DNA of 64,000 bases, from sequence record MT833283.1; one strand, 5' to 3'. Source of the stretch: Escherichia coli phage vB_EcoS_Ace. The notes under the pieces are model-generated. The model was not told the DNA's origin and did not search any database. It saw only the letters and a program-made list of their open reading frames with translations. Positions 40 through 43,728 of the stretch are shown one piece after another. Numbering within the stretch: position 1 is the first letter of the stretch; each line of letters begins with the position of its first letter. Position numbers and translations under genes: made by a program.

Positions 40-774
40 TTAGGCAACTTTTAATTTATCAATGAATTGTTGCGGAGTGGTACTATATTCCGCGCGTTCT
101 TCCTCGGTCATACCTTCCCAACACATTTTTAAACGTTCGGCTAGGAATTGATAATCGTTATCATCATCAAGCGATTCATCAATAAAGGTTTCACCGATCA
201 ATGTTACGCCGATTGATAGGATATCATTAACGGCTTGAGCGTCCAGCGTTTTAAATCCAGCACTTGCCGCCGCCGATAATACACCTTTATGATCATCAAT
301 CATTGTAAAATCAGCGTTAGGATATAGCTGTTTAAACAGTTCAAAGTAATAAGATTTATATACAGCGTCTTTGCTGTGATATATTTCGCTAACCTTATTT
401 GCATCAAAGTATTTATGTAATGTATCGCGGGAAAATACGCGAATATTACTATTTCCGCGCCCTCGCAAGCCTTGTTTGCGTAAATAAAAATAATCGCTTT
501 TAGACATTAAGCGCGCGGTACAAATTATATTTAATGTATTTGCATCATTCATACATTGGCGCATATATTCAACCAACGGCAATAAAGAATCTTGCATAAT
601 TAAATCATGTTTGCAGGCTTCGCGGGAATACTTAACTAAATCTAAATTCCCGTTATCATCAAAGCAAGGTGCTACACGATGGAAAGAATTTATAATCGTT
701 CCGTCTAAATCCCAAATCATAACGCGGGAAATATGCGGGAAAGCGCGGGTAATATTCATGTTGACTTGATTCAT
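40..774 (-). CDS. dmp: 5'-deoxyribonucleotidase, HAD family (T5 Dmp-like)
   Basis: 244-aa ORF; HAD motif I (IWDLDGTI); position and size match T5 pre-early dmp as recalled. Confidence 0.75.
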   Translation of the reverse strand: MNQVNMNITRAFPHISRVMIWDLDGTIINSFHRVAPCFDDNGNLDLVKYSREACKHDLIMQDSLLPLVEYMRQCMNDANTLNIICTARLMSKSDYFYLRKQGLRGRGNSNIRVFSRDTLHKYFDANKVSEIYHSKDAVYKSYYFELFKQLYPNADFTMIDDHKGVLSAAASAGFKTLDAQAVNDILSIGVTLIGETFIDESLDDDNDYQFLAERLKMCWEGMTEEERAEYSTTPQQFIDKLKVA

Positions 775-861
775 TTGTTACATTCTCCATTTAAGGGATT
801 TAGGTTAATTCAATCTTGCCAGCTAATTATATTAGATTAGCTGGCAATGTTCAATTAACTA

Positions 862-1254
862 TTAGTTAGTGAGGCCATACGCTAGCGCGTCACCGATAAA
901 GGAAAGATCTTCACCATGTACGCTAGAACGGATACCCGCGCAAGTATAAACCATTGCGCTAGCTTCGGGATTGCAGACCGGACACGGCTTAACAACTGCA
1001 AACGCTAGACCTGATTTAAGCGCATCAATAATGATTGTTTGCACTGTCAAAGTATCAGCGTAAACGCCTTTTGCTTTCGTATGGCTTGCCACTTTGCCGG
1101 TATCATAAGCAAAGGTAGTAACCTGCAAAGCGTCGTTATAATTCAGCAAATCGAAATTAACTTGCCCCGCTTCGACGTGATAACGTTCGCCATTAGAGTA
1201 AACTAGAACGATGGAAGAAGTAGCGCGATCAAAAGGAATGTTTTGGTTTTTCAT
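862..1254 (-). CDS. hypothetical pre-early protein (130 aa)
   Basis: ORF in track; same strand and tight spacing with dmp/A1; no recognisable motif. Confidence 0.5.
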   Translation of the reverse strand: MKNQNIPFDRATSSIVLVYSNGERYHVEAGQVNFDLLNYNDALQVTTFAYDTGKVASHTKAKGVYADTLTVQTIIIDALKSGLAFAVVKPCPVCNPEASAMVYTCAGIRSSVHGEDLSFIGDALAYGLTN

Positions 1255-1290
1255 GTTTATGACTCCAGATTGTTTAATTACGGGATTAAT

Positions 1291-1569
1291 TTATTTATTG
1301 ACTTCTAAACTTACAACAAAGTTTAAATTTGTTTCTTTCCACACATCGGGAATATCTTGTTCCTGCAAATAATCCCTCGCTTCATAATCAGTTTCAAAGG
1401 AATAAAAATCCCCTGATTCAATTATATAAGAATGACCATTTATCGGATTTTGATAAATATAACAGTCACCATCTTTTATATTACGGTATACAGTGCCATG
1501 CCCGATATTATCAATGGCATATGTATCAGACATATTTTTACTAGATGGAAGATTAATTTTAATCGTCAT
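1291..1569 (-). CDS. hypothetical pre-early protein (92 aa)
   Basis: ORF in track directly downstream of A1 on the same strand. Confidence 0.5.
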   Translation of the reverse strand: MTIKINLPSSKNMSDTYAIDNIGHGTVYRNIKDGDCYIYQNPINGHSYIIESGDFYSFETDYEARDYLQEQDIPDVWKETNLNFVVSLEVNK

Positions 1570-7183: not shown

Positions 7184-7678
7184 ATGTCGGAAGAAAAATA
7201 TGGCTTTTCGCTAGAAAGTGTGAGTGAAGCTAAACACGATATGATCGTTTTAGTTGATTGTCACACTGGCTATTGTGGAGAAAGGAACACTGAGGAACAT
7301 TTTGTTCCCGCTGGATGTGATCTGGACGCGTTCACACATGAAATGGCTATTGATAATGCTTCTAGTTTCGGTAGTGATGGCTATGAAGATGAAGAAACAG
7401 GGGAATGGATTGAAAATGATAATGTATATGCGAGTCTTTATCATTATCAATTGAGTAAGTCCGGCACTTATGTAAATGGCGGCGATCCTATTAATACCGT
7501 TATGAAACTAATTATTAAACACGGTGGCGCGGAAATAATTGGTAACAAGGCGTTATTATATGCAAATCGATTAAAACAGCTTGTTTATATTCCTGATAAT
7601 TCCCGTTGGGATGAATATGCCGTTTTACAGAAAGAACTAAAACGCTGTTTCAATATTGAAGCATTAGAAATAGTCTAA
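7184..7678 (+). CDS. acidic hypothetical protein (164 aa)
   Basis: ORF in track; AGGAG upstream; followed by hairpin plus T-run terminator at 7694-7720. Confidence 0.6.
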   Translation: MSEEKYGFSLESVSEAKHDMIVLVDCHTGYCGERNTEEHFVPAGCDLDAFTHEMAIDNASSFGSDGYEDEETGEWIENDNVYASLYHYQLSKSGTYVNGGDPINTVMKLIIKHGGAEIIGNKALLYANRLKQLVYIPDNSRWDEYAVLQKELKRCFNIEALEIV

Positions 7679-32805: not shown

Positions 32806-32882
32806 TGGTCTCCAATGAAGGACTCGAACCTTCAACCCCACCGCCCCAAACGGTGTACTCTAGCCAATTGAGCTAATCGGAG
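32806..32882 (-). tRNA. tRNA-Pro (UGG)
   Basis: anticodon arm CACCG-TTTGGGG-CGGTG. Confidence 0.6.
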
Positions 32883-32891
32883 AATATTATT

Positions 32892-33089
32892 TTATTGTGG
32901 TGGAATATTAATATTCCGTCCATCTATGCAGTAAATGGTACTAGGAATTGTAGAGTGTATACTGAAGTTTTGTATTTTACTCTCTCCACCACAGAAATTT
33001 TTTGCAAATTCATACTCCTTGTTAATGGTTGAATCAAATTTAAAGCAACCAGTGAGTAAGAATACAGATAGTAACATAACTTTTTTCAT
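32892..33089 (-). CDS. small lipoprotein (65 aa)
   Basis: signal peptide with lipobox LTGC. Confidence 0.45.
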   Translation of the reverse strand: MKKVMLLSVFLLTGCFKFDSTINKEYEFAKNFCGGESKIQNFSIHSTIPSTIYCIDGRNINIPPQ

Positions 33090-40598: not shown

Positions 40599-41543
40599 TT
40601 ACTTGTTACGCATATCCATGATCATTTGACCATCGTAGCCAGTACCAACAACAGTCTGCGGTACACCACCTTGGTATTTTTCAGCACGAAGCATTTCAAC
40701 TTCCAGCTGCTTCCAACGAATCATTTCAGGAGTAATGGTACGTTGCAGCGCGGCGTTAGCTTCAGCTTCTTTCTTAGCTGCGTACAGTTTAGCATCTGCG
40801 TCACGTTCGTTAGCTACTGCCATGTTTTCACGAGCAGAACGATCAGCTTCAGCTTGCTTAACTTTCTGCTGTGCTTCTTGTTCAACACGAGCCAATTCAG
40901 CTTTTGCAGCGTTAACTTGTTCTTCACGAACTTTAGTGTTCTGTACCTGTTCCATGATTACCGGTGGCAGAGTAATATCCTGAAGGAATACTTGCTTAAC
41001 CGTGTAACCATAAGGACGCGCGTACTCTTCTACCTCTTGCTGAATAGCAGTTTGCAGTTGAGCCTGAATCTTAGCGTCGAACAGATCTTGTGCTTTTGGT
41101 ACGGACTTACCAAACTCACGAATCGTAGACAGCATCTTCTCTTCAACGTACTTGTTCAGAGCTTGATCCTGAGTACCTGCGTTAACACGGTTCATAGGAG
41201 CTTTAGCACCATCAAACTGCAACATAACGGTAATGTCAACAGTAGACTTAAACTTATCCTGGCTAGGAACCTGAAGTTTATCCAGTTTCATGGAAATATC
41301 TTTCGTACTAAAAGTATCAAAAGAAGCAAATGGGTTAACAATATGGAAGCCTGGCAGTACAGGGTTCGGGCTAACTTTACCCAGGAAGGTCTGAGTCTTT
41401 ACAGTACCATCCTGAACAACTGTGTAGGAATTGAGAGCCAGAATAAGAGCACCAAGACCAACTACAGCACCAACACCCCAACGTTTAATAGTACGAATTA
41501 CTTTTTGCTCAGAAGTCAGTTCTTTAGTGTTTTTAGTAAACAT
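40599..41543 (-). CDS. SPFH/band-7 (prohibitin/HflK-like) membrane protein
   Basis: N-terminal TM, SPFH-like core, long Ala/Glu/Gln-rich coiled-coil C-terminus. Confidence 0.6.
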   Translation of the reverse strand: MFTKNTKELTSEQKVIRTIKRWGVGAVVGLGALILALNSYTVVQDGTVKTQTFLGKVSPNPVLPGFHIVNPFASFDTFSTKDISMKLDKLQVPSQDKFKSTVDITVMLQFDGAKAPMNRVNAGTQDQALNKYVEEKMLSTIREFGKSVPKAQDLFDAKIQAQLQTAIQQEVEEYARPYGYTVKQVFLQDITLPPVIMEQVQNTKVREEQVNAAKAELARVEQEAQQKVKQAEADRSARENMAVANERDADAKLYAAKKEAEANAALQRTITPEMIRWKQLEVEMLRAEKYQGGVPQTVVGTGYDGQMIMDMRNK

Positions 41544-41554
41544 ATATTTCCTTA

Positions 41555-41755
41555 TTATTTAGAAGAGTTAGCTACTACAGTTACTTTAGTTGCAGAAATA
41601 AACAGGCCAGCATCCACAGCAAATTCAGGAGCTTTGATATCTCCATTATGAAATATGACTATACCGGAGATTACCTCAAATGCTAGTGCTGTAACATCGG
41701 TGGTATTTACTTGTGAATGTTCACCTACTACTTTTACTATATATCGTGTTTTCAT
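41555..41755 (-). CDS. hypothetical protein (66 aa)
   Basis: ORF in track. Confidence 0.4.
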   Translation of the reverse strand: MKTRYIVKVVGEHSQVNTTDVTALAFEVISGIVIFHNGDIKAPEFAVDAGLFISATKVTVVANSSK

Positions 41756-41781: not shown

Positions 41782-41856
41782 TGGCCGAGGTGACAGGATT
41801 TGAACCTGCATAAAGGAATTTAGAAGACTCCTGCCTATCCCTTAGACTACACCCCG
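41782..41856 (-). tRNA. tRNA-Arg (UCU)
   Basis: anticodon arm AGGAGT-CTTCTAA-ATTCCT; isolated from main cluster. Confidence 0.55.
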
Positions 41857-41864
41857 AAAGTTAA

Positions 41865-42374
41865 TCATTTAATGACTTTATTCAATTTAGTTTGACTTTC
41901 AACAGCTTCTTTAGCAGATTTCTCAGCATTTTTAGCTGCACGTTGTGCTTTAGAGTCAATCAATAGCTTGTCATACTTGATATTAACGAACTCTTTAATA
42001 TCGTGGTAGAAACGTTGATGTGCCATGTATTCTTGTGCATCTGCGTCATAACAGCGCATATAGAAGTAATCACTAGGCTCTCCGCGAAGTGTACTCTCTA
42101 GAATCTGCGGGCGATAACGACGTAATGTATCTTTCGCCATTTTTACTTCATCAGTTTCTTCACCAAGCTGAACTAGGTGATAAAGACGAGTATTGTCGAT
42201 GTAATCCAAAGCTACGCTAAAGTATTCACCTTCTCGAAGATTATATCCTGTAATCTCACTCATTTTCTCGCGAGCTTGATCAAGTGTCAATCGTTCAGAG
42301 AAATGTGCTATATGCAGAATACGAGGGCAACACATTTCTTGAAGATCAAAGATACAAGTTGTTCCTAGATTCAT
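41865..42374 (-). CDS. hypothetical protein (169 aa)
   Basis: ORF in track; lies downstream of the ~870-nt ORF-free transcribed region. Confidence 0.5.
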   Translation of the reverse strand: MNLGTTCIFDLQEMCCPRILHIAHFSERLTLDQAREKMSEITGYNLREGEYFSVALDYIDNTRLYHLVQLGEETDEVKMAKDTLRRYRPQILESTLRGEPSDYFYMRCYDADAQEYMAHQRFYHDIKEFVNIKYDKLLIDSKAQRAAKNAEKSAKEAVESQTKLNKVIK

Positions 42375-43247
42375 ATTGATTCCTTTTGTTAGGTATTTTT
42401 AAGAACTCTCGAAAAAGCTCTTAAAGATACCCGGCGGTAGGTAGGGTCAGCCCCCTCAGATTAAGCTCTGCAGCCCTTCCGTCAGACAATATCCTCCAGT
42501 TTAAGTCAGGGTGACTTTGTGGTTATGTTCTCCGTATGTGAAGAACTCGGTTAGGCTTAGGTCATGACTCCCAGCCTACTGCTGCCACTCAACAGGAATT
42601 ATCGCGAATTACCTGTACTATTGGGCACCATTAGTGACATCTCTCATGCCAGCATTTCCCACTCTCATATTCACGCGGTCTGGTAGAATCACACCTCCGA
42701 TTTTCGATGCGAAGCTGGATGCCTAGTCTCTATGTTAAACGGGGCACACACTAGGCAGTGATCCCGAGTTCCGAGTTTGGTTGAGGCCGTCAGGTTTCCT
42801 CGTGGTTTAGCTGTTTCGATTCTAACCTAATACTGATCAGGCGGCGTACCTCCTGAACCGTCATAGTATGTACTCCAGCAGCGAATGCTTATCCGGTATA
42901 AGCCCGAGTTATCCGATTCTTTCCGACCGCAGGATTCGAACCTGCATCTTCCACCAGTTACGGTTTAATATTACCGTTTATACTAGGACGGCAGTGTTAT
43001 CACATAAGTCAGTTCGACACCCCACTAACATAAACTAGAGAAGAGTTTACGAGATTTCGGGACAGCTCCCGTGTTTTCCGCAGATTTTCAGTTCCCTATC
43101 AATAGCAATAAGCGTTAGCTCGTAGCCTCTCTCAGAGTACTTACTAGTCTCCAACTCACCGACTCTATTCAGTGGAATAGCTATCCTAGTAGGAATCACT
43201 AAACTCACTCAGCGTAATCGGCTCGCTGTTCTCTACTTTATGAATTT

Positions 43248-43276
43248 ATTATACAGAATTTTGAAGCGTTTAGCAA
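43248..43276 (-). promoter_or_regulatory. sigma70 promoter (TATAAT / TTGCTA) reading into ORF-free region 42375-43247
   Basis: minus strand; 17-bp spacer; no SD/ATG follows. Confidence 0.6.
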
Positions 43277-43284
43277 ACCAATTT

Positions 43285-43728
43285 TTAATTAAATTCGCCA
43301 GCAACCTGAGCAGCAATGCCACCGTCGTAACGACCAGGAAACTCTTCCTTAATCGCTTTCATCAGCATACCCTTTGTAATCCCAGGATTCAGCTTAACTA
43401 ATTCTGCGAAGTATTTGCGAATCTCAGTAGGAGATAACTGAGGCGGCAGATACTGCTGTAGCCATTTGTTCAGTATATACTCATACTGAGCAGACTGCAA
43501 GCTATAATTATCGAGGTCTTGACCGTGAAGTTTAGCTTTCGTATGATTAATGCTTTTCAGTTGAGCTTTTAGATAAGATACAAACTGTTCAGAAGTTATG
43601 AAGTCTTTATCAATACGCTGAAGATCTCCGATTATGGTCTGGTAGCTTTTAGCTACTTCTTTATCAGAACCATCAACCTTAGATTCCTGCAAAACTCTAC
43701 GCAAAACAGATAGAATATTCTCTTCCAT
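43285..43728 (-). CDS. GatB/YqeY-domain protein (147 aa)
   Basis: C-terminal GMLMKAIKEEFPGRYDGGIAAQVAGEF resembles YqeY signature. Confidence 0.5.
   Translation of the reverse strand: MEENILSVLRRVLQESKVDGSDKEVAKSYQTIIGDLQRIDKDFITSEQFVSYLKAQLKSINHTKAKLHGQDLDNYSLQSAQYEYILNKWLQQYLPPQLSPTEIRKYFAELVKLNPGITKGMLMKAIKEEFPGRYDGGIAAQVAGEFN

What the first reader, a model, noticed from the sequence alone, without database searches (positions are those of the whole stretch)
42375..43247. About 870-nt ORF-free region transcribed from a consensus early promoter: candidate long non-coding RNA
Promoter 43248-43276 (TATAAT/TTGCTA, 17-bp spacer) points into a stretch with no ORF of 60 aa or more on either strand and a visibly higher GC content than its surroundings. 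It lacks the leader/SD/ATG that follows the other early promoters. The stretch contains a tRNA-like T-arm hairpin (42929-42945, GCAGG-TTCGAAT-CCTGC on the RNA) with no acceptor partner. It could be a structured RNA, a decayed gene, or an unusually long leader for ORF 41865..42374.
Basis: seen in the sequence. Interest (0 to 1): 0.6.

Follow-up and report, generated by a model that had tools for sequence, protein, structure and literature searches.

The report
RNAX: large structured T5-phage RNA
This ORF-free stretch is the gene for RNAX, a large folded non-coding RNA that T5-like phages carry beside their tRNA genes; phage T5's GenBank record already annotates it as a stable RNA of unknown function, and its structure and role have never been worked out.

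Summary
Window 42375-43247 has no ORF of 60 aa or more, is GC-rich (0.45-0.50 against about 0.37 in the flanks), and lies behind a TTGCTA-17-TATAAT promoter on the minus strand. It is not a new locus. The homologous stretch is annotated in T5 (AY543070) and DT571/2 as misc_RNA rnaX, 'stable RNA with unknown functions'.

New here: the RNA is about 855 nt in this phage and 644-1296 nt in relatives. It is clearly a structured, modular non-coding RNA. Three separately aligned blocks pair in 89-99% of cells, against 25-47% in slid controls. 47 of 89 pairs show compensatory changes. G·U pairs fit only the minus-strand transcript.

It lacks a normal anticodon loop and sits at the tip of a covarying 12-bp stem. 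A hairpin displays an invariant self-complementary loop, AGUCAUGA.

I found homologs in six Demerecviridae lineages and none in bacterial genomes. No Rfam family matches. It is deleted in the T5 st0 strain.

Function is unknown. My best guess, at low confidence, is a GOLLD/ROOL-like self-associating phage RNA that displays a tRNA-shaped module.

The parts
43248..43276 (-). Sigma-70 early promoter (TTGCTA, 17-nt spacer, TATAAT). The transcript start is inferred at about 43241.
   Evidence: Promoter scan. Conserved in all aligned relatives. T5's record annotates 'promoter P 16-17' at the homologous place.
42393..43241 (-). Body of the RNAX-family non-coding RNA. RNA position p equals window 43248-p; about 850 nt.
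   Evidence: Homolog of T5 and DT571/2 misc_RNA rnaX. 528 phage records hold it. Covariation in three blocks. No Rfam family besides tRNA.
43229..43242 (-). P1, 5' strand (RNA 6-19, CAUAAAGUAGAGAA). Pairs with 43029-43042.
   Evidence: The inner 7 pairs were counted: 5 of 7 have compensatory changes and 96.7% of cells pair. The extension to 13 pairs was read from the sequence. T5 keeps this stem but caps it with a short loop in place of the 190-nt 5' domain.
43029..43042 (-). P1, 3' strand (RNA 206-219, UUCUCUAGUUUAUG). Closes the optional 5' domain.
43210..43228 (-). Hairpin H2 (CAGCG-AGCCGAUUA-CGCUG). Loop bases GCCGA form pseudoknot PK1 with 43158-43162.
   Evidence: H2 pairs in 100% of cells and switches G-C to A-U in DU_PP_V and Proteus phages. 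PK1 pairs in 100% of cells: GCCGA/UCGGU, GCUGA/UCAGU, GCAGA/UCUGU, GCAUA/UAUGU.
43158..43162 (-). PK1, 3' strand (UCGGU).
43022..43025 (-). LR1, 5' strand (GUGG). Pairs with CCAC at 42802-42805 and closes Domain I.
   Evidence: GUGG/CCAC in most. bobsandoy has AUGG/CCAU, DU_PP_V has UACGG/CCGUA, and Proteus and Providencia phages have AAUGGG/CCCAUU.
42802..42805 (-). LR1, 3' strand (CCAC, within GCUAAACCAC).
42999..43012 (-). Core stem S1-S3, 5' strand (CUGA-C-UUAU-G-UGAU).
   Evidence: helix 1: 12 pairs, 99.7% of cells paired across 29 sequences, 7 pairs with compensatory changes.
42904..42917 (-). Core stem S1-S3, 3' strand (AUCG-G-AUAA-C-UCGG).
42921..42992 (-). tRNA-like cloverleaf at the tip of S1-S3. 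It has an acceptor-like stem, a D arm and a T arm (GGUUCGAAUCC). A 3-4 bp stem with a 6-nt loop stands in place of the anticodon arm. Both ends continue into the stem, and there is no CCA.
   Evidence: Infernal RF00005, 29.7 bits. ARAGORN does not call it. T5 record AY587007 marks it as a pseudo-tRNA. The arm varies among relatives: a GNRA loop in AAS21, a long arm in Sugarland, and a plain hairpin in L036, Proteus and Providencia phages.
42887..42903 (-). Hairpin hp1 (GCUUAU-ACCGG-AUAAGC).
   Evidence: helix 7: 93.6% paired, 3 pairs compensatory.
42519..42662 (-). Domain II (RNA 586-729). It is bounded by an invariant GUGG/CCAC. It contains hairpins 42635-42651 and 42592-42616, the palindromic-loop hairpin, and 42527-42546.
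   Evidence: 89.5% paired against 25-42% in slid controls; 16 of 34 pairs compensatory. Hairpin 42527-42546 has 5 of 5 pairs compensatory. The bounding helix never varies, so it is unproven.
42552..42578 (-). Two-tier hairpin that displays the invariant loop AGUCAUGA (42562-42569). It contains the palindrome UCAUGA, part of GUCAUGAC.
   Evidence: The stem covaries (helices 5-6). GGAGUCAUGACC is invariant in all T5-like, Sugarland, DU_PP_V and AAS21 copies. The same palindrome sits in a 13-nt loop in Proteus phages, in a different position in the RNA. GTCATGAC occurs once in the 64-kb window.
42504..42516 (-). Hairpin AGUCA-CCC-UGACU, followed by the conserved UAAACUGGA.
   Evidence: 91% paired, little variation.
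42393..42430 (-). AU-rich terminal hairpin of about 17 bp. In T5 it lies immediately 5' of tRNA-Arg. No U-tract follows it, so it is not an intrinsic terminator.
   Evidence: Conserved in all lineages except Priunavirus and Novosibvirus. No minus-strand terminator was found.
41865..42374 (-). Context: a 169-aa ORF with a Shine-Dalgarno sequence, inserted between RNAX and tRNA-Arg in this phage type. Not part of the RNA.
   Evidence: No Pfam or PHROG match. Present in Shin27, bobsandoy and 26175III; absent in T5, DT571/2, JLBYU40 and bastian.
41782..41856 (-). Context: tRNA-Arg(UCU), the conserved downstream partner of RNAX.
   Evidence: ARAGORN. Synteny.
43285..43728 (-). Context: upstream YqeY-like gene ('tRNA amidotransferase', T5.081).
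   Evidence: PHROG 1460, E 5.5e-45. Pfam YqeY at 22.7 bits, below the cut-off of 27.

Best explanation
The stretch is the gene for RNAX, a large structured non-coding RNA of T5-like phages.

How it is made. It is transcribed on the minus strand from the early sigma-70 promoter at 43276-43248 and starts near 43241. It extends at least to the terminal hairpin that ends at 42393. In T5 the RNA abuts tRNA-Arg(UCU). I therefore infer that its 3' end is made by RNase P cutting at the tRNA's 5' end, and that the terminal hairpin protects it. Here a 169-codon ORF has been inserted between the hairpin and the tRNA, so the primary transcript probably continues through the ORF.

Fold, shown by covariation:
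- An optional 5' domain, closed by a helix between the extreme 5' end and nt 206-219. It holds a hairpin whose loop forms a pseudoknot.
- Domain I, closed by GUGG/CCAC. Its 12-bp interrupted stem carries a tRNA-like cloverleaf without a normal anticodon loop at its tip.
- A variable linker.
- Domain II, with a hairpin that displays the invariant self-complementary loop AGUCAUGA.
- A terminal hairpin.

Function, inferred only. It acts in trans as a folded RNA particle and is an accessory factor of the phage tRNA island. The mechanism I think most likely (about 0.25) is that it works like the phage RNAs GOLLD and ROOL. On this view it self-associates through the palindromic loop and displays a tRNA-shaped module to tRNA-handling machinery.
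For: Identity:
- Homologous stretch annotated as rnaX, 'stable RNA with unknown functions', in T5 AY543070 and DT571/2.
- 528 phage records hold it.
- A covariance model of Domain I finds exactly one full-length copy per phage searched, including the Proteus and Providencia phages, though most of these sequences were in the model's own seed (E 1e-15 to 1e-36).

Non-coding:
- No ORF of 60 aa or more.
- No codon periodicity, and inconsistent longest ORFs among relatives.
- Modules are replaced wholesale.

Structure:
- Block A1: 91.1% of cells paired, against 33-42% in slid controls; 23 of 38 pairs compensatory.
- Block A3: 98.6% against 30-47%; 8 of 17 compensatory.
- Block A2: 89.5% against 25-42%; 16 of 34 compensatory.
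- LR1 covaries in four forms.
- Frequent G·U/A-U alternation fits only the minus-strand RNA.

Stable-RNA design: both ends are buried in long helices.

Analogy with GOLLD and ROOL. PMC12286853 reports these properties for GOLLD, ROOL or both, and RNAX has the corresponding sequence-level features:
- Phage-encoded, near tRNA islands.
- Variable 5' region and conserved 3' region.
- tRNAs inside a variable region.
- Conserved palindromic kissing loops.
Against: - I could reach no expression data. 'Stable RNA' rests on a GenBank note only.
- The MFE z-score is only -1.49.
- The palindromic loop never varies, so self-pairing cannot be shown by covariation. The loop is missing in Priunavirus.
- The tRNA-like module is replaced by plain hairpins in L036 and in Proteus and Providencia phages, so it is not indispensable.
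- The RNA lies inside the T5 st0 deletion. It is also absent from the part of Vibrio phage pVp-1 that I searched (first 50 kb, tRNA island included). Any role is therefore accessory.
- The GOLLD and ROOL covariance models give no hit even at E up to 10.
Confidence: 0.8

Rival explanations
1. tRNA-mimic decoy or sponge. RNAX displays a tRNA elbow and acceptor shape in order to soak up a host factor. The factor could be a tRNA-targeting defence nuclease, RNase P or a tRNA-modifying enzyme. This would protect phage or host tRNAs during infection.
For: - A tRNA-like cloverleaf is conserved at the tip of a covarying stem in most lineages.
- The RNA always lies in the tRNA island, next to a YqeY-like gene that PHROGs labels 'tRNA amidotransferase'.
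- T5 tRNAs are known to counter PARIS and retron defences, from the titles and abstracts listed (PMC11464382; 10.1101/2023.03.15.532788).
Against: - The anticodon loop, which is the target of the known anticodon nucleases, is exactly the part that is missing or variable.
- The module is replaced by plain hairpins in L036, Proteus and Providencia phages.
- This reading leaves about 780 nt of conserved structure unexplained.
Confidence: 0.15
2. Cis-acting leader or processing cassette. The RNA exists only to drive, fold or time the expression and RNase P processing of the downstream tRNA-Arg(UCU). In this phage it would also serve the 169-aa ORF.
For: - The order promoter, RNAX, tRNA-Arg(UCU) is kept in all six lineages.
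- No terminator separates them.
- In this window a Shine-Dalgarno sequence and ATG follow the terminal hairpin directly.
Against: - 650-1300 nt of covarying, multi-domain structure is far more than any known tRNA leader.
- One to three unrelated ORFs can be inserted between the RNA and the tRNA without changing the RNA.
- No riboswitch or T-box model matches.
- T5's record calls it a stable RNA in its own right.
Confidence: 0.1
3. Decayed protein gene plus a tRNA pseudogene. On this view it is non-functional filler that happens to be transcribed.
For: - T5 record AY587007 marks the cloverleaf as a pseudo-tRNA.
- Many GenBank records place 'hypothetical protein' CDSs here.
Against: - Conserved across six Demerecviridae lineages, with compensatory base-pair changes in 47 of 89 tested pairs.
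- No 3-base periodicity.
- The annotated CDSs differ in strand and place between records.
Confidence: 0.02
4. A DNA-level element, such as a replication origin, nick site or protein-binding array, rather than an RNA.
For: - GTCATGAC is a DNA palindrome.
- The GC content is atypical for the genome.
Against: - G·U pairs alternate with A-U and G-C in several helices (columns 12/134 and 21/124). They would be C·A mismatches on the other strand, so selection acts on the minus-strand transcript.
- A strong conserved promoter points into the region.
- GTCATGAC occurs only once in the 64-kb window.
Confidence: 0.02

Closest known systems
RNAX (gene rnaX) of phage T5, GenBank AY543070 40848-41566, and of DT571/2, KM979355 30288-30923
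   Same: Homologous sequence and the same promoter. Same position between the YqeY-like gene T5.081 and tRNA-Arg(UCU). Same Domain I, tRNA-like module, Domain II and terminal hairpin.
   Different: This phage's copy has about 190 extra nt of 5' domain (P1-enclosed, with the pseudoknot), which T5 replaces by a short loop. It has different variable linkers. A 169-aa ORF is inserted before the tRNA. The GenBank entries give only a name and 'unknown functions'. I found no paper on it in the searchable library.
GOLLD RNA (a large ornate RNA of phages and prophages)
   Same: Phage-encoded, in or next to tRNA islands, and 800 nt or more. It has a less conserved 5' part and a conserved 3' part. tRNAs are sometimes embedded in a variable region. 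Conserved palindromic loops form symmetric kissing contacts. All of this is from PMC12286853.
   Different: No sequence or structure match: the Rfam scan gives no hit even at E up to 10. Different hosts (Enterobacterales phages). Multimer formation by RNAX is untested. The embedded element here is a tRNA mimic without an anticodon loop, not a working tRNA.
ROOL RNA
   Same: A large, pseudoknotted, phage or prophage RNA near tRNA islands, of unknown function. It self-assembles through kissing loops (PMC12286853).
   Different: No Rfam match. RNAX is longer and more modular. Assembly is not shown.
Bacterial Y RNA of the YrlA type (a tRNA-like module on a protein-binding stem)
   Same: An irregular stem bears a tRNA-like domain with T and D arms and a shortened anticodon arm. 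The basis is the abstract of 10.1101/312249 listed, plus my own recollection of the YrlA literature.
   Different: YrlA is much shorter than RNAX (from recollection). From recollection, it lies next to an rsr (Ro60) gene and binds Ro60. No Y-RNA family matched in the Rfam scans, and I found no Ro60-type gene beside RNAX. The stem sequences are unrelated.
MALAT1 mascRNA and other tRNA-like processing signals
   Same: A tRNA-shaped element lies inside a long non-coding transcript, and RNase P helps define RNA ends (titles and abstracts). Here RNase P at tRNA-Arg probably makes the 3' end of RNAX in T5.
   Different: The internal cloverleaf of RNAX is clamped at both ends by the S1-S3 stem. According to T5's annotation of a 719-nt RNA, it is not excised. 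Whether RNase P cuts it is untested.

Membership tests
T5 RNAX (rnaX) family | Sequence homology to the annotated T5 and DT571/2 rnaX | tested here: met
   blastn places the DT571/2 rnaX feature under the match (H76). Aligned with T5 over Domain I, Domain II and the terminal hairpin. The covariance model R1 (whose seed alignment includes the window) scores the window copy at 165.8 bits.
T5 RNAX (rnaX) family | Position: behind the early promoter that follows the YqeY-like gene and upstream of tRNA-Arg(UCU), on the same strand | tested here: met
   In this phage one extra ORF lies between the RNA and the tRNA.
T5 RNAX (rnaX) family | Accumulates as a discrete stable RNA in infected cells | not testable with these tools
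   Only the GenBank note 'stable RNA'. I could reach no RNA-seq or Northern data.
tRNA (RF00005), for the embedded element 42921-42992 | Cloverleaf scoring at or above the Rfam gathering score | tested here: met
   29.7 bits against 29. 38-39 bits in DU_PP_V and AAS21. ARAGORN does not call it in the window.
tRNA (RF00005), for the embedded element 42921-42992 | 5-bp anticodon stem with a 7-nt loop carrying a conserved anticodon | tested here: not met
   A 3-4 bp stem with a 6-nt loop here. Relatives have a GAGA tetraloop (AAS21), a 5-nt loop (DU_PP_V) or a long arm (Sugarland). Annotators call it tRNA-OTHER, Sec, Ser or Gln inconsistently.
tRNA (RF00005), for the embedded element 42921-42992 | Free, processable 5' and 3' ends with CCA or a site for CCA addition | tested here: not met
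   Both ends continue into the covarying S1-S3 stem. The sequence after the acceptor stem is AAAGAA. Actual processing is not testable here.
GOLLD / ROOL / OLE (large ornate RNAs, Rfam) | Match to the family covariance model | tested here: not met
   No hit at E up to 1 over 3.5 kb, nor at E up to 10 on the RNA alone. None in eight related loci at E up to 0.1.
GOLLD / ROOL / OLE (large ornate RNAs, Rfam) | Phage-encoded, adjacent to a tRNA island, more than 500 nt, multi-domain and pseudoknotted | tested here: met
   29 tRNAs lie in the window and tRNA-Arg lies downstream. Length 644-1296 nt. Pseudoknot and domains.
GOLLD / ROOL / OLE (large ornate RNAs, Rfam) | RNA-only homo-oligomer held by kissing loops | not testable with these tools
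   Indirect only: an invariant palindromic loop is displayed on a covarying stem.
Bacterial Y RNA (YrlA type) | Match to a Y-RNA model, and linkage to an rsr (Ro60) gene | tested here: not met
   No Rfam Y-RNA hit. The neighbouring genes are YqeY-like, SPFH and hypothetical. I did not search the whole genome for rsr.
Riboswitch / T-box / other cis-regulatory leader | Match to a known leader family, and obligatory coupling to one downstream gene | tested here: not met
   No Rfam leader family matches. The next gene downstream differs between phages: a tRNA, ORF169 or other small ORFs.

The most novel reading that the evidence does not exclude
RNAX is a further, independent class of self-assembling 'ornate' phage RNA, alongside GOLLD and ROOL. 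It dimerises or multimerises through the invariant AGUCAUGA kissing loop and displays a tRNA-shaped module (or other cargo hairpins) at the tip of Domain I. Because it lives in phage T5 and E. coli, the biological purpose of such giant phage RNAs could at last be tested genetically.
Probability: 0.2. Interest if true: 0.85.

Novelty: already known. Interest (0 to 1): 0.5.

Why it matters
RNAX is encoded by one of the classic model phages, yet it has no Rfam family. I found no paper on it in the searchable library, and its function is unknown.

This analysis shows it is a genuine multi-domain RNA of 650-1300 nt supported by covariation. It is conserved in at least 528 phage records, and its pieces are modular and swappable.

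If it behaves like GOLLD or ROOL, whose functions are also unknown, T5 and E. coli would be a far more tractable system for asking what giant phage RNAs do.

There is also a practical point. Many GenBank records leave the locus blank. Others fill it with spurious 'hypothetical protein' CDSs or odd tRNA calls (tRNA-Sec, tRNA-OTHER, tRNA-Ser). A covariance model would fix that annotation.

Tried and rejected
1. Rfam scans of the region (E up to 1), of the RNA alone (E up to 10) and of eight related loci. They returned only tRNA hits. No GOLLD, ROOL, OLE, Y RNA, tmRNA, RNase P, intron, riboswitch or T-box.
2. Whole-length MAFFT alignment with an automatic covariation helix finder. Variable and permuted modules misalign and give many false 'compensatory' helices. 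I abandoned it for blocks cut out at conserved anchors.
3. RNAalifold proposed that the AGUCAUGA loop pairs with CGCGAU. Every column is invariant, and the pairing conflicts with the covarying hairpin at 42592-42616, so I did not adopt it.
4. A local hairpin CACUGA/UCGGUG (RNA 74-79 with 86-91) as an alternative to pseudoknot PK1. It cannot form in DU_PP_V, PR1 or the Proteus phages, whereas PK1 covaries.
5. Origin of the tRNA-like module from one of the phage's own tRNAs. The best match is 51 of 72 identities (tRNA-Arg-ACG), so no clear parent.
6. IMG/VR pattern AACACTGCC...GGTTCRANTCC. It pulled in 40 unrelated metagenomic contigs, all negative by nhmmer.
7. Bacterial and archaeal genomes: no match to the Domain I signature. 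Metagenomes: 12 matches. Four are on contigs of 107-115 kb and the rest on fragments; all have a known RNAX copy as best match.
8. Vibrio T5-like phage pVp-1 (first 50 kb searched). It has a gene annotated 'tRNA amidotransferase' and a tRNA island, but no RNAX, GOLLD or ROOL.
9. T-loop hairpins in Proteus and Providencia RNAX as a relocated tRNA-like domain. Infernal gives no tRNA hit and folding is inconclusive, so I do not claim this.
10. Literature searches for RNAX, T5 stable RNAs and T5-like structured RNAs. None describes this RNA.
11. Thermodynamic z-score of -1.49. Too weak to use as evidence.
Full report
**Observation**

The window is a T5-like phage with genes on the minus strand here. 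Between the stop codon of a 147-aa gene (43285-43728) and the start of a 169-aa ORF (41865-42374) there is no ORF of 60 aa or more on either strand. The longest are 56 and 53 aa. GC is 0.45-0.50, against 0.33-0.42 in the flanks.

A TTGCTA-17-TATAAT promoter lies at 43276-43248 on the minus strand, and no minus-strand terminator follows it. The T-arm hairpin is at the coordinates given.

Infernal aligns a complete cloverleaf at 42921-42992(-), at 29.7 bits against a gathering score of 29.

**Identity**

- megablast finds the stretch in 355 phage records, and blastn in 528. Most records leave it unannotated or fill it with inconsistent 'hypothetical protein' or odd tRNA calls.
- Two curated records name it. 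T5 AY543070 has misc_RNA rnaX, 'RNAX, stable RNA with unknown functions', at 40848-41566. It lies behind 'promoter P 16-17' and abuts tRNA-Arg. DT571/2 has the same feature.
- Another T5 record marks the cloverleaf as a pseudo-tRNA.
- The locus is therefore known by name. Four different literature searches found no paper that describes it.
- In the T5 st0 strain the deletion joins the truncated upstream gene to the tRNA-Asp region, which removes rnaX. From general knowledge, T5st0 is a viable laboratory strain, so RNAX is dispensable under laboratory conditions.

**Not coding**

- Among 41 distinct copies, the longest ORF differs in strand, place and length.
- Variable columns show no 3-base periodicity: 205, 203 and 203 variable columns at the three positions, p = 0.99.
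- Differences between relatives are whole-module insertions, deletions and replacements.
- The 53-aa ORF at 43047-43208 has no Pfam match. It lies in a domain that T5 lacks altogether.

**Structure**

I cut three blocks out at conserved anchors and counted pairs on each.

| Block | Content | Sequences | Cells paired | Slid controls | Compensatory pairs |
|---|---|---|---|---|---|
| A3 | 5' elements P1, H2, PK1 | 13 | 98.6% | 30-47% | 8 of 17 |
| A1 | Domain I | 29 | 91.1% | 33-42% | 23 of 38 |
| A2 | Domain II | 14 | 89.5% | 25-42% | 16 of 34 |

- In A3 the pseudoknot appears as GCCGA/UCGGU, GCUGA/UCAGU, GCAGA/UCUGU and GCAUA/UAUGU.
- In A1 the 12-pair stem that carries the cloverleaf pairs in 99.7% of cells, and 7 of its pairs are compensatory.
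- In A2 one hairpin has 5 of 5 pairs compensatory.
- A 4-6 bp long-range helix closes Domain I. It covaries as GUGG/CCAC, AUGG/CCAU, UACGG/CCGUA and AAUGGG/CCCAUU.
- Several pairs alternate between U·G, U-A and C-G. This only makes sense for the minus-strand RNA.
- The shuffle controls of the tool do not correct for phylogeny, but the slid-partner controls do. The changes also occur in several separate lineages.
- The MFE z-score (-1.49) is uninformative.

**Architecture** (RNA position p = window 43248-p; coordinates checked)

- *P1.* The extreme 5' end (6-19) pairs with 206-219. This closes an optional domain of about 190 nt that holds H2 and PK1.
- *The 5' domain is optional.* T5 and DT571/2 keep the P1 stem but cap it with a short loop. 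One phage (L046) has an HNH/AP2 homing-endonuclease ORF in place of this domain.
- *Domain I (223-446).* It contains the S1-S3 stem with the cloverleaf (256-327) at its tip, hairpin hp1, a second hairpin of variable size, and the conserved GCUAAACCAC.
- *The cloverleaf.* It keeps the acceptor-like stem, the D arm and the T arm. A short stem with a 6-nt loop replaces the anticodon arm.
- *Variants of that arm.* Relatives have a GNRA loop, a 5-nt loop or a long arm instead. L036, Priunavirus and Novosibvirus have a plain hairpin at that position.
- *Linker (447-585).* Variable.
- *Domain II (586-729).* It includes a two-tier hairpin whose 8-nt loop AGUCAUGA is invariant.
- *The palindromic loop.* GGAGUCAUGACC is identical in Markadamsvirinae, Sugarlandvirus, DU_PP_V and AAS21. 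The palindrome GUCAUGAC also sits in a hairpin loop in Proteus phages, at a different place in the RNA. GTCATGAC occurs once in the 64-kb window.
- *3' end.* The RNA ends with an AU-rich hairpin of about 17 bp (818-855).

**Distribution**

- The order [YqeY-like gene in most lineages; an endolysin gene in Sugarlandvirus] - promoter - RNAX - [0 to 3 small ORFs] - tRNA-Arg(UCU) holds in six lineages. They are Markadamsvirinae, Sugarlandvirus, Hongcheonvirus, the AAS21 group, Priunavirus and Novosibvirus.
- A covariance model of Domain I finds one full-length copy in each phage searched. Elsewhere it matches only ordinary tRNAs, through the tRNA part of the model.
- In the region of Vibrio phage pVp-1 that I searched (first 50 kb; Ermolyevavirinae), there is a gene annotated 'tRNA amidotransferase' and a tRNA island but no RNAX.
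- A 31-nt Domain I signature matches nothing in 185,579 bacterial and archaeal genomes.
- In metagenomes it matches 12 stretches. Four are on contigs of 107-115 kb and the rest on fragments; every one has a known RNAX copy as its best match.

**How it probably works**

*Shown:*
- It has a conserved strong promoter.
- It is non-coding.
- It has a conserved multi-domain fold with both ends buried in helices.
- It is linked to tRNA-Arg.

*Inferred:*
- In T5 the 3' end is made by RNase P at the tRNA's 5' end, and the terminal hairpin protects it.
- In this phage the transcript reads on into ORF169, whose Shine-Dalgarno sequence and ATG directly follow the hairpin. RNAX is then either cut off or serves as the 5' part of that mRNA.

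*Function: unknown.* I commit, at about 0.25, to a GOLLD/ROOL-like mode. On this view RNAX is a trans-acting RNA particle that self-associates through the palindromic loop and displays a tRNA-shaped or other module at the tip of Domain I. The basis is the set of shared properties reported for GOLLD, ROOL or both in PMC12286853:
- Phage origin and location in a tRNA island.
- Variable 5' region and conserved 3' region.
- tRNAs inside a variable region.
- Conserved palindromic kissing loops.

*Rivals:*
- A tRNA-mimic decoy or sponge (0.15). This is weakened because the anticodon loop is absent and the module can be swapped out.
- A purely cis-acting leader for the tRNA (0.1).
- A pseudogene or a DNA-level element (0.02 each). 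The covariation and the G·U evidence argue against both.

**Comparison and novelty**

By homology and synteny this is a member of the RNAX family, so the locus itself is already known. It is not a member of any Rfam family. Its resemblance to GOLLD, ROOL and YrlA-type Y RNAs is one of kind, not of descent.

The following are new in this analysis:
- The covariation-supported domain model.
- Recognition that the 'pseudo-tRNA' is a structural module on a conserved stem.
- The invariant palindromic loop.
- The modular exchange of domains.
- The family's limits within the Demerecviridae that infect Enterobacterales.

**Caveats**

- I had no expression data.
- The structure model is partial: the linker and parts of the 3' region remain unresolved.
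- The helix bounding Domain II and the palindromic loop never vary, so they are unproven.
- Only one Ermolyevavirinae genome segment was examined.
- Pogseptimavirus and Shenzhenvirus were not examined.

Noticed in passing
L046 (IMGVR_UViG_2974662754), locus 220-1357, minus strand: In this T5-like phage the whole 5' domain of RNAX is replaced by a 160-aa HNH/AP2-type homing-endonuclease ORF. Its stop codon lies directly before the Domain I core (…TAGTAATAGTGGGGTGTCGAAC). This looks like a mobile endonuclease sitting inside an RNA gene.
   Followed up: partly
window 41865-42374 (-): A 169-aa ORF lies between RNAX and tRNA-Arg. It has no Pfam or PHROG family. It is present only in some Epseptimavirus-type phages (Shin27, bobsandoy, 26175III) and absent in T5. 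It looks like an inserted accessory gene of unknown function.
   Followed up: partly
L004 (DT571/2 KM979355 25716-27586) and L093 (T5 st0 32841-33086): The curated T5 and DT571/2 records list further small 'stable RNAs with unknown functions' among the tRNAs: RNAI, RNAIII, RNA2H, RNA3, rna2 and RNAIV. Their homologs probably lie in the tRNA-free gaps of this window (28-38 kb). I did not examine them.
   Followed up: no
L036 (IMGVR_UViG_2974569706) 7446-7567: This Salmonella phage copy closely matches the window's RNAX in the stretches I aligned. It has the tRNA-like module cleanly swapped for an unrelated hairpin of about 45 nt, closed by CCAGA/UCUGG. The tip of Domain I behaves as an exchangeable cargo site.
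   Followed up: partly
L096-L098 (Proteus phages) about 1392-1432, compared with window 42552-42578: The hairpin with the GUCAUGAC loop lies 5' of Domain I in Novosibvirus but 3' of it in T5-like phages. The same module therefore occurs in a permuted order. Priunavirus has a GGAAU-loop hairpin there instead.
   Followed up: partly
Many GenBank records under hits H4, H6, H45-H49, H51, H58, H79, H87: The RNAX locus is widely mis-annotated. Some records place up to six 'hypothetical protein' CDSs on it. The cloverleaf is called tRNA-Sec, tRNA-Ser, tRNA-Gln or tRNA-OTHER.
   Followed up: no
L111 (Vibrio phage pVp-1) 37900-45600: This Vibrio T5-like phage has a gene annotated 'tRNA amidotransferase' inside a dense tRNA island of about 25 tRNAs. 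The table returned for this RefSeq stretch lists none of these tRNAs. It has no RNAX. A sub-threshold tRNA-like hit (28 bits) starts at the end of gp059, the ORF after that gene (41563-41631).
   Followed up: partly
window 42562-42552 (-), RNA 686-696: The invariant loop reads GGAG-UC-AUG-ACC-UAA in this phage. That is a Shine-Dalgarno-like GGAG two bases before an AUG, followed by a 2-codon mini-ORF (5 codons in T5). The spacing is too short for normal initiation, and it is probably coincidental.
   Followed up: no
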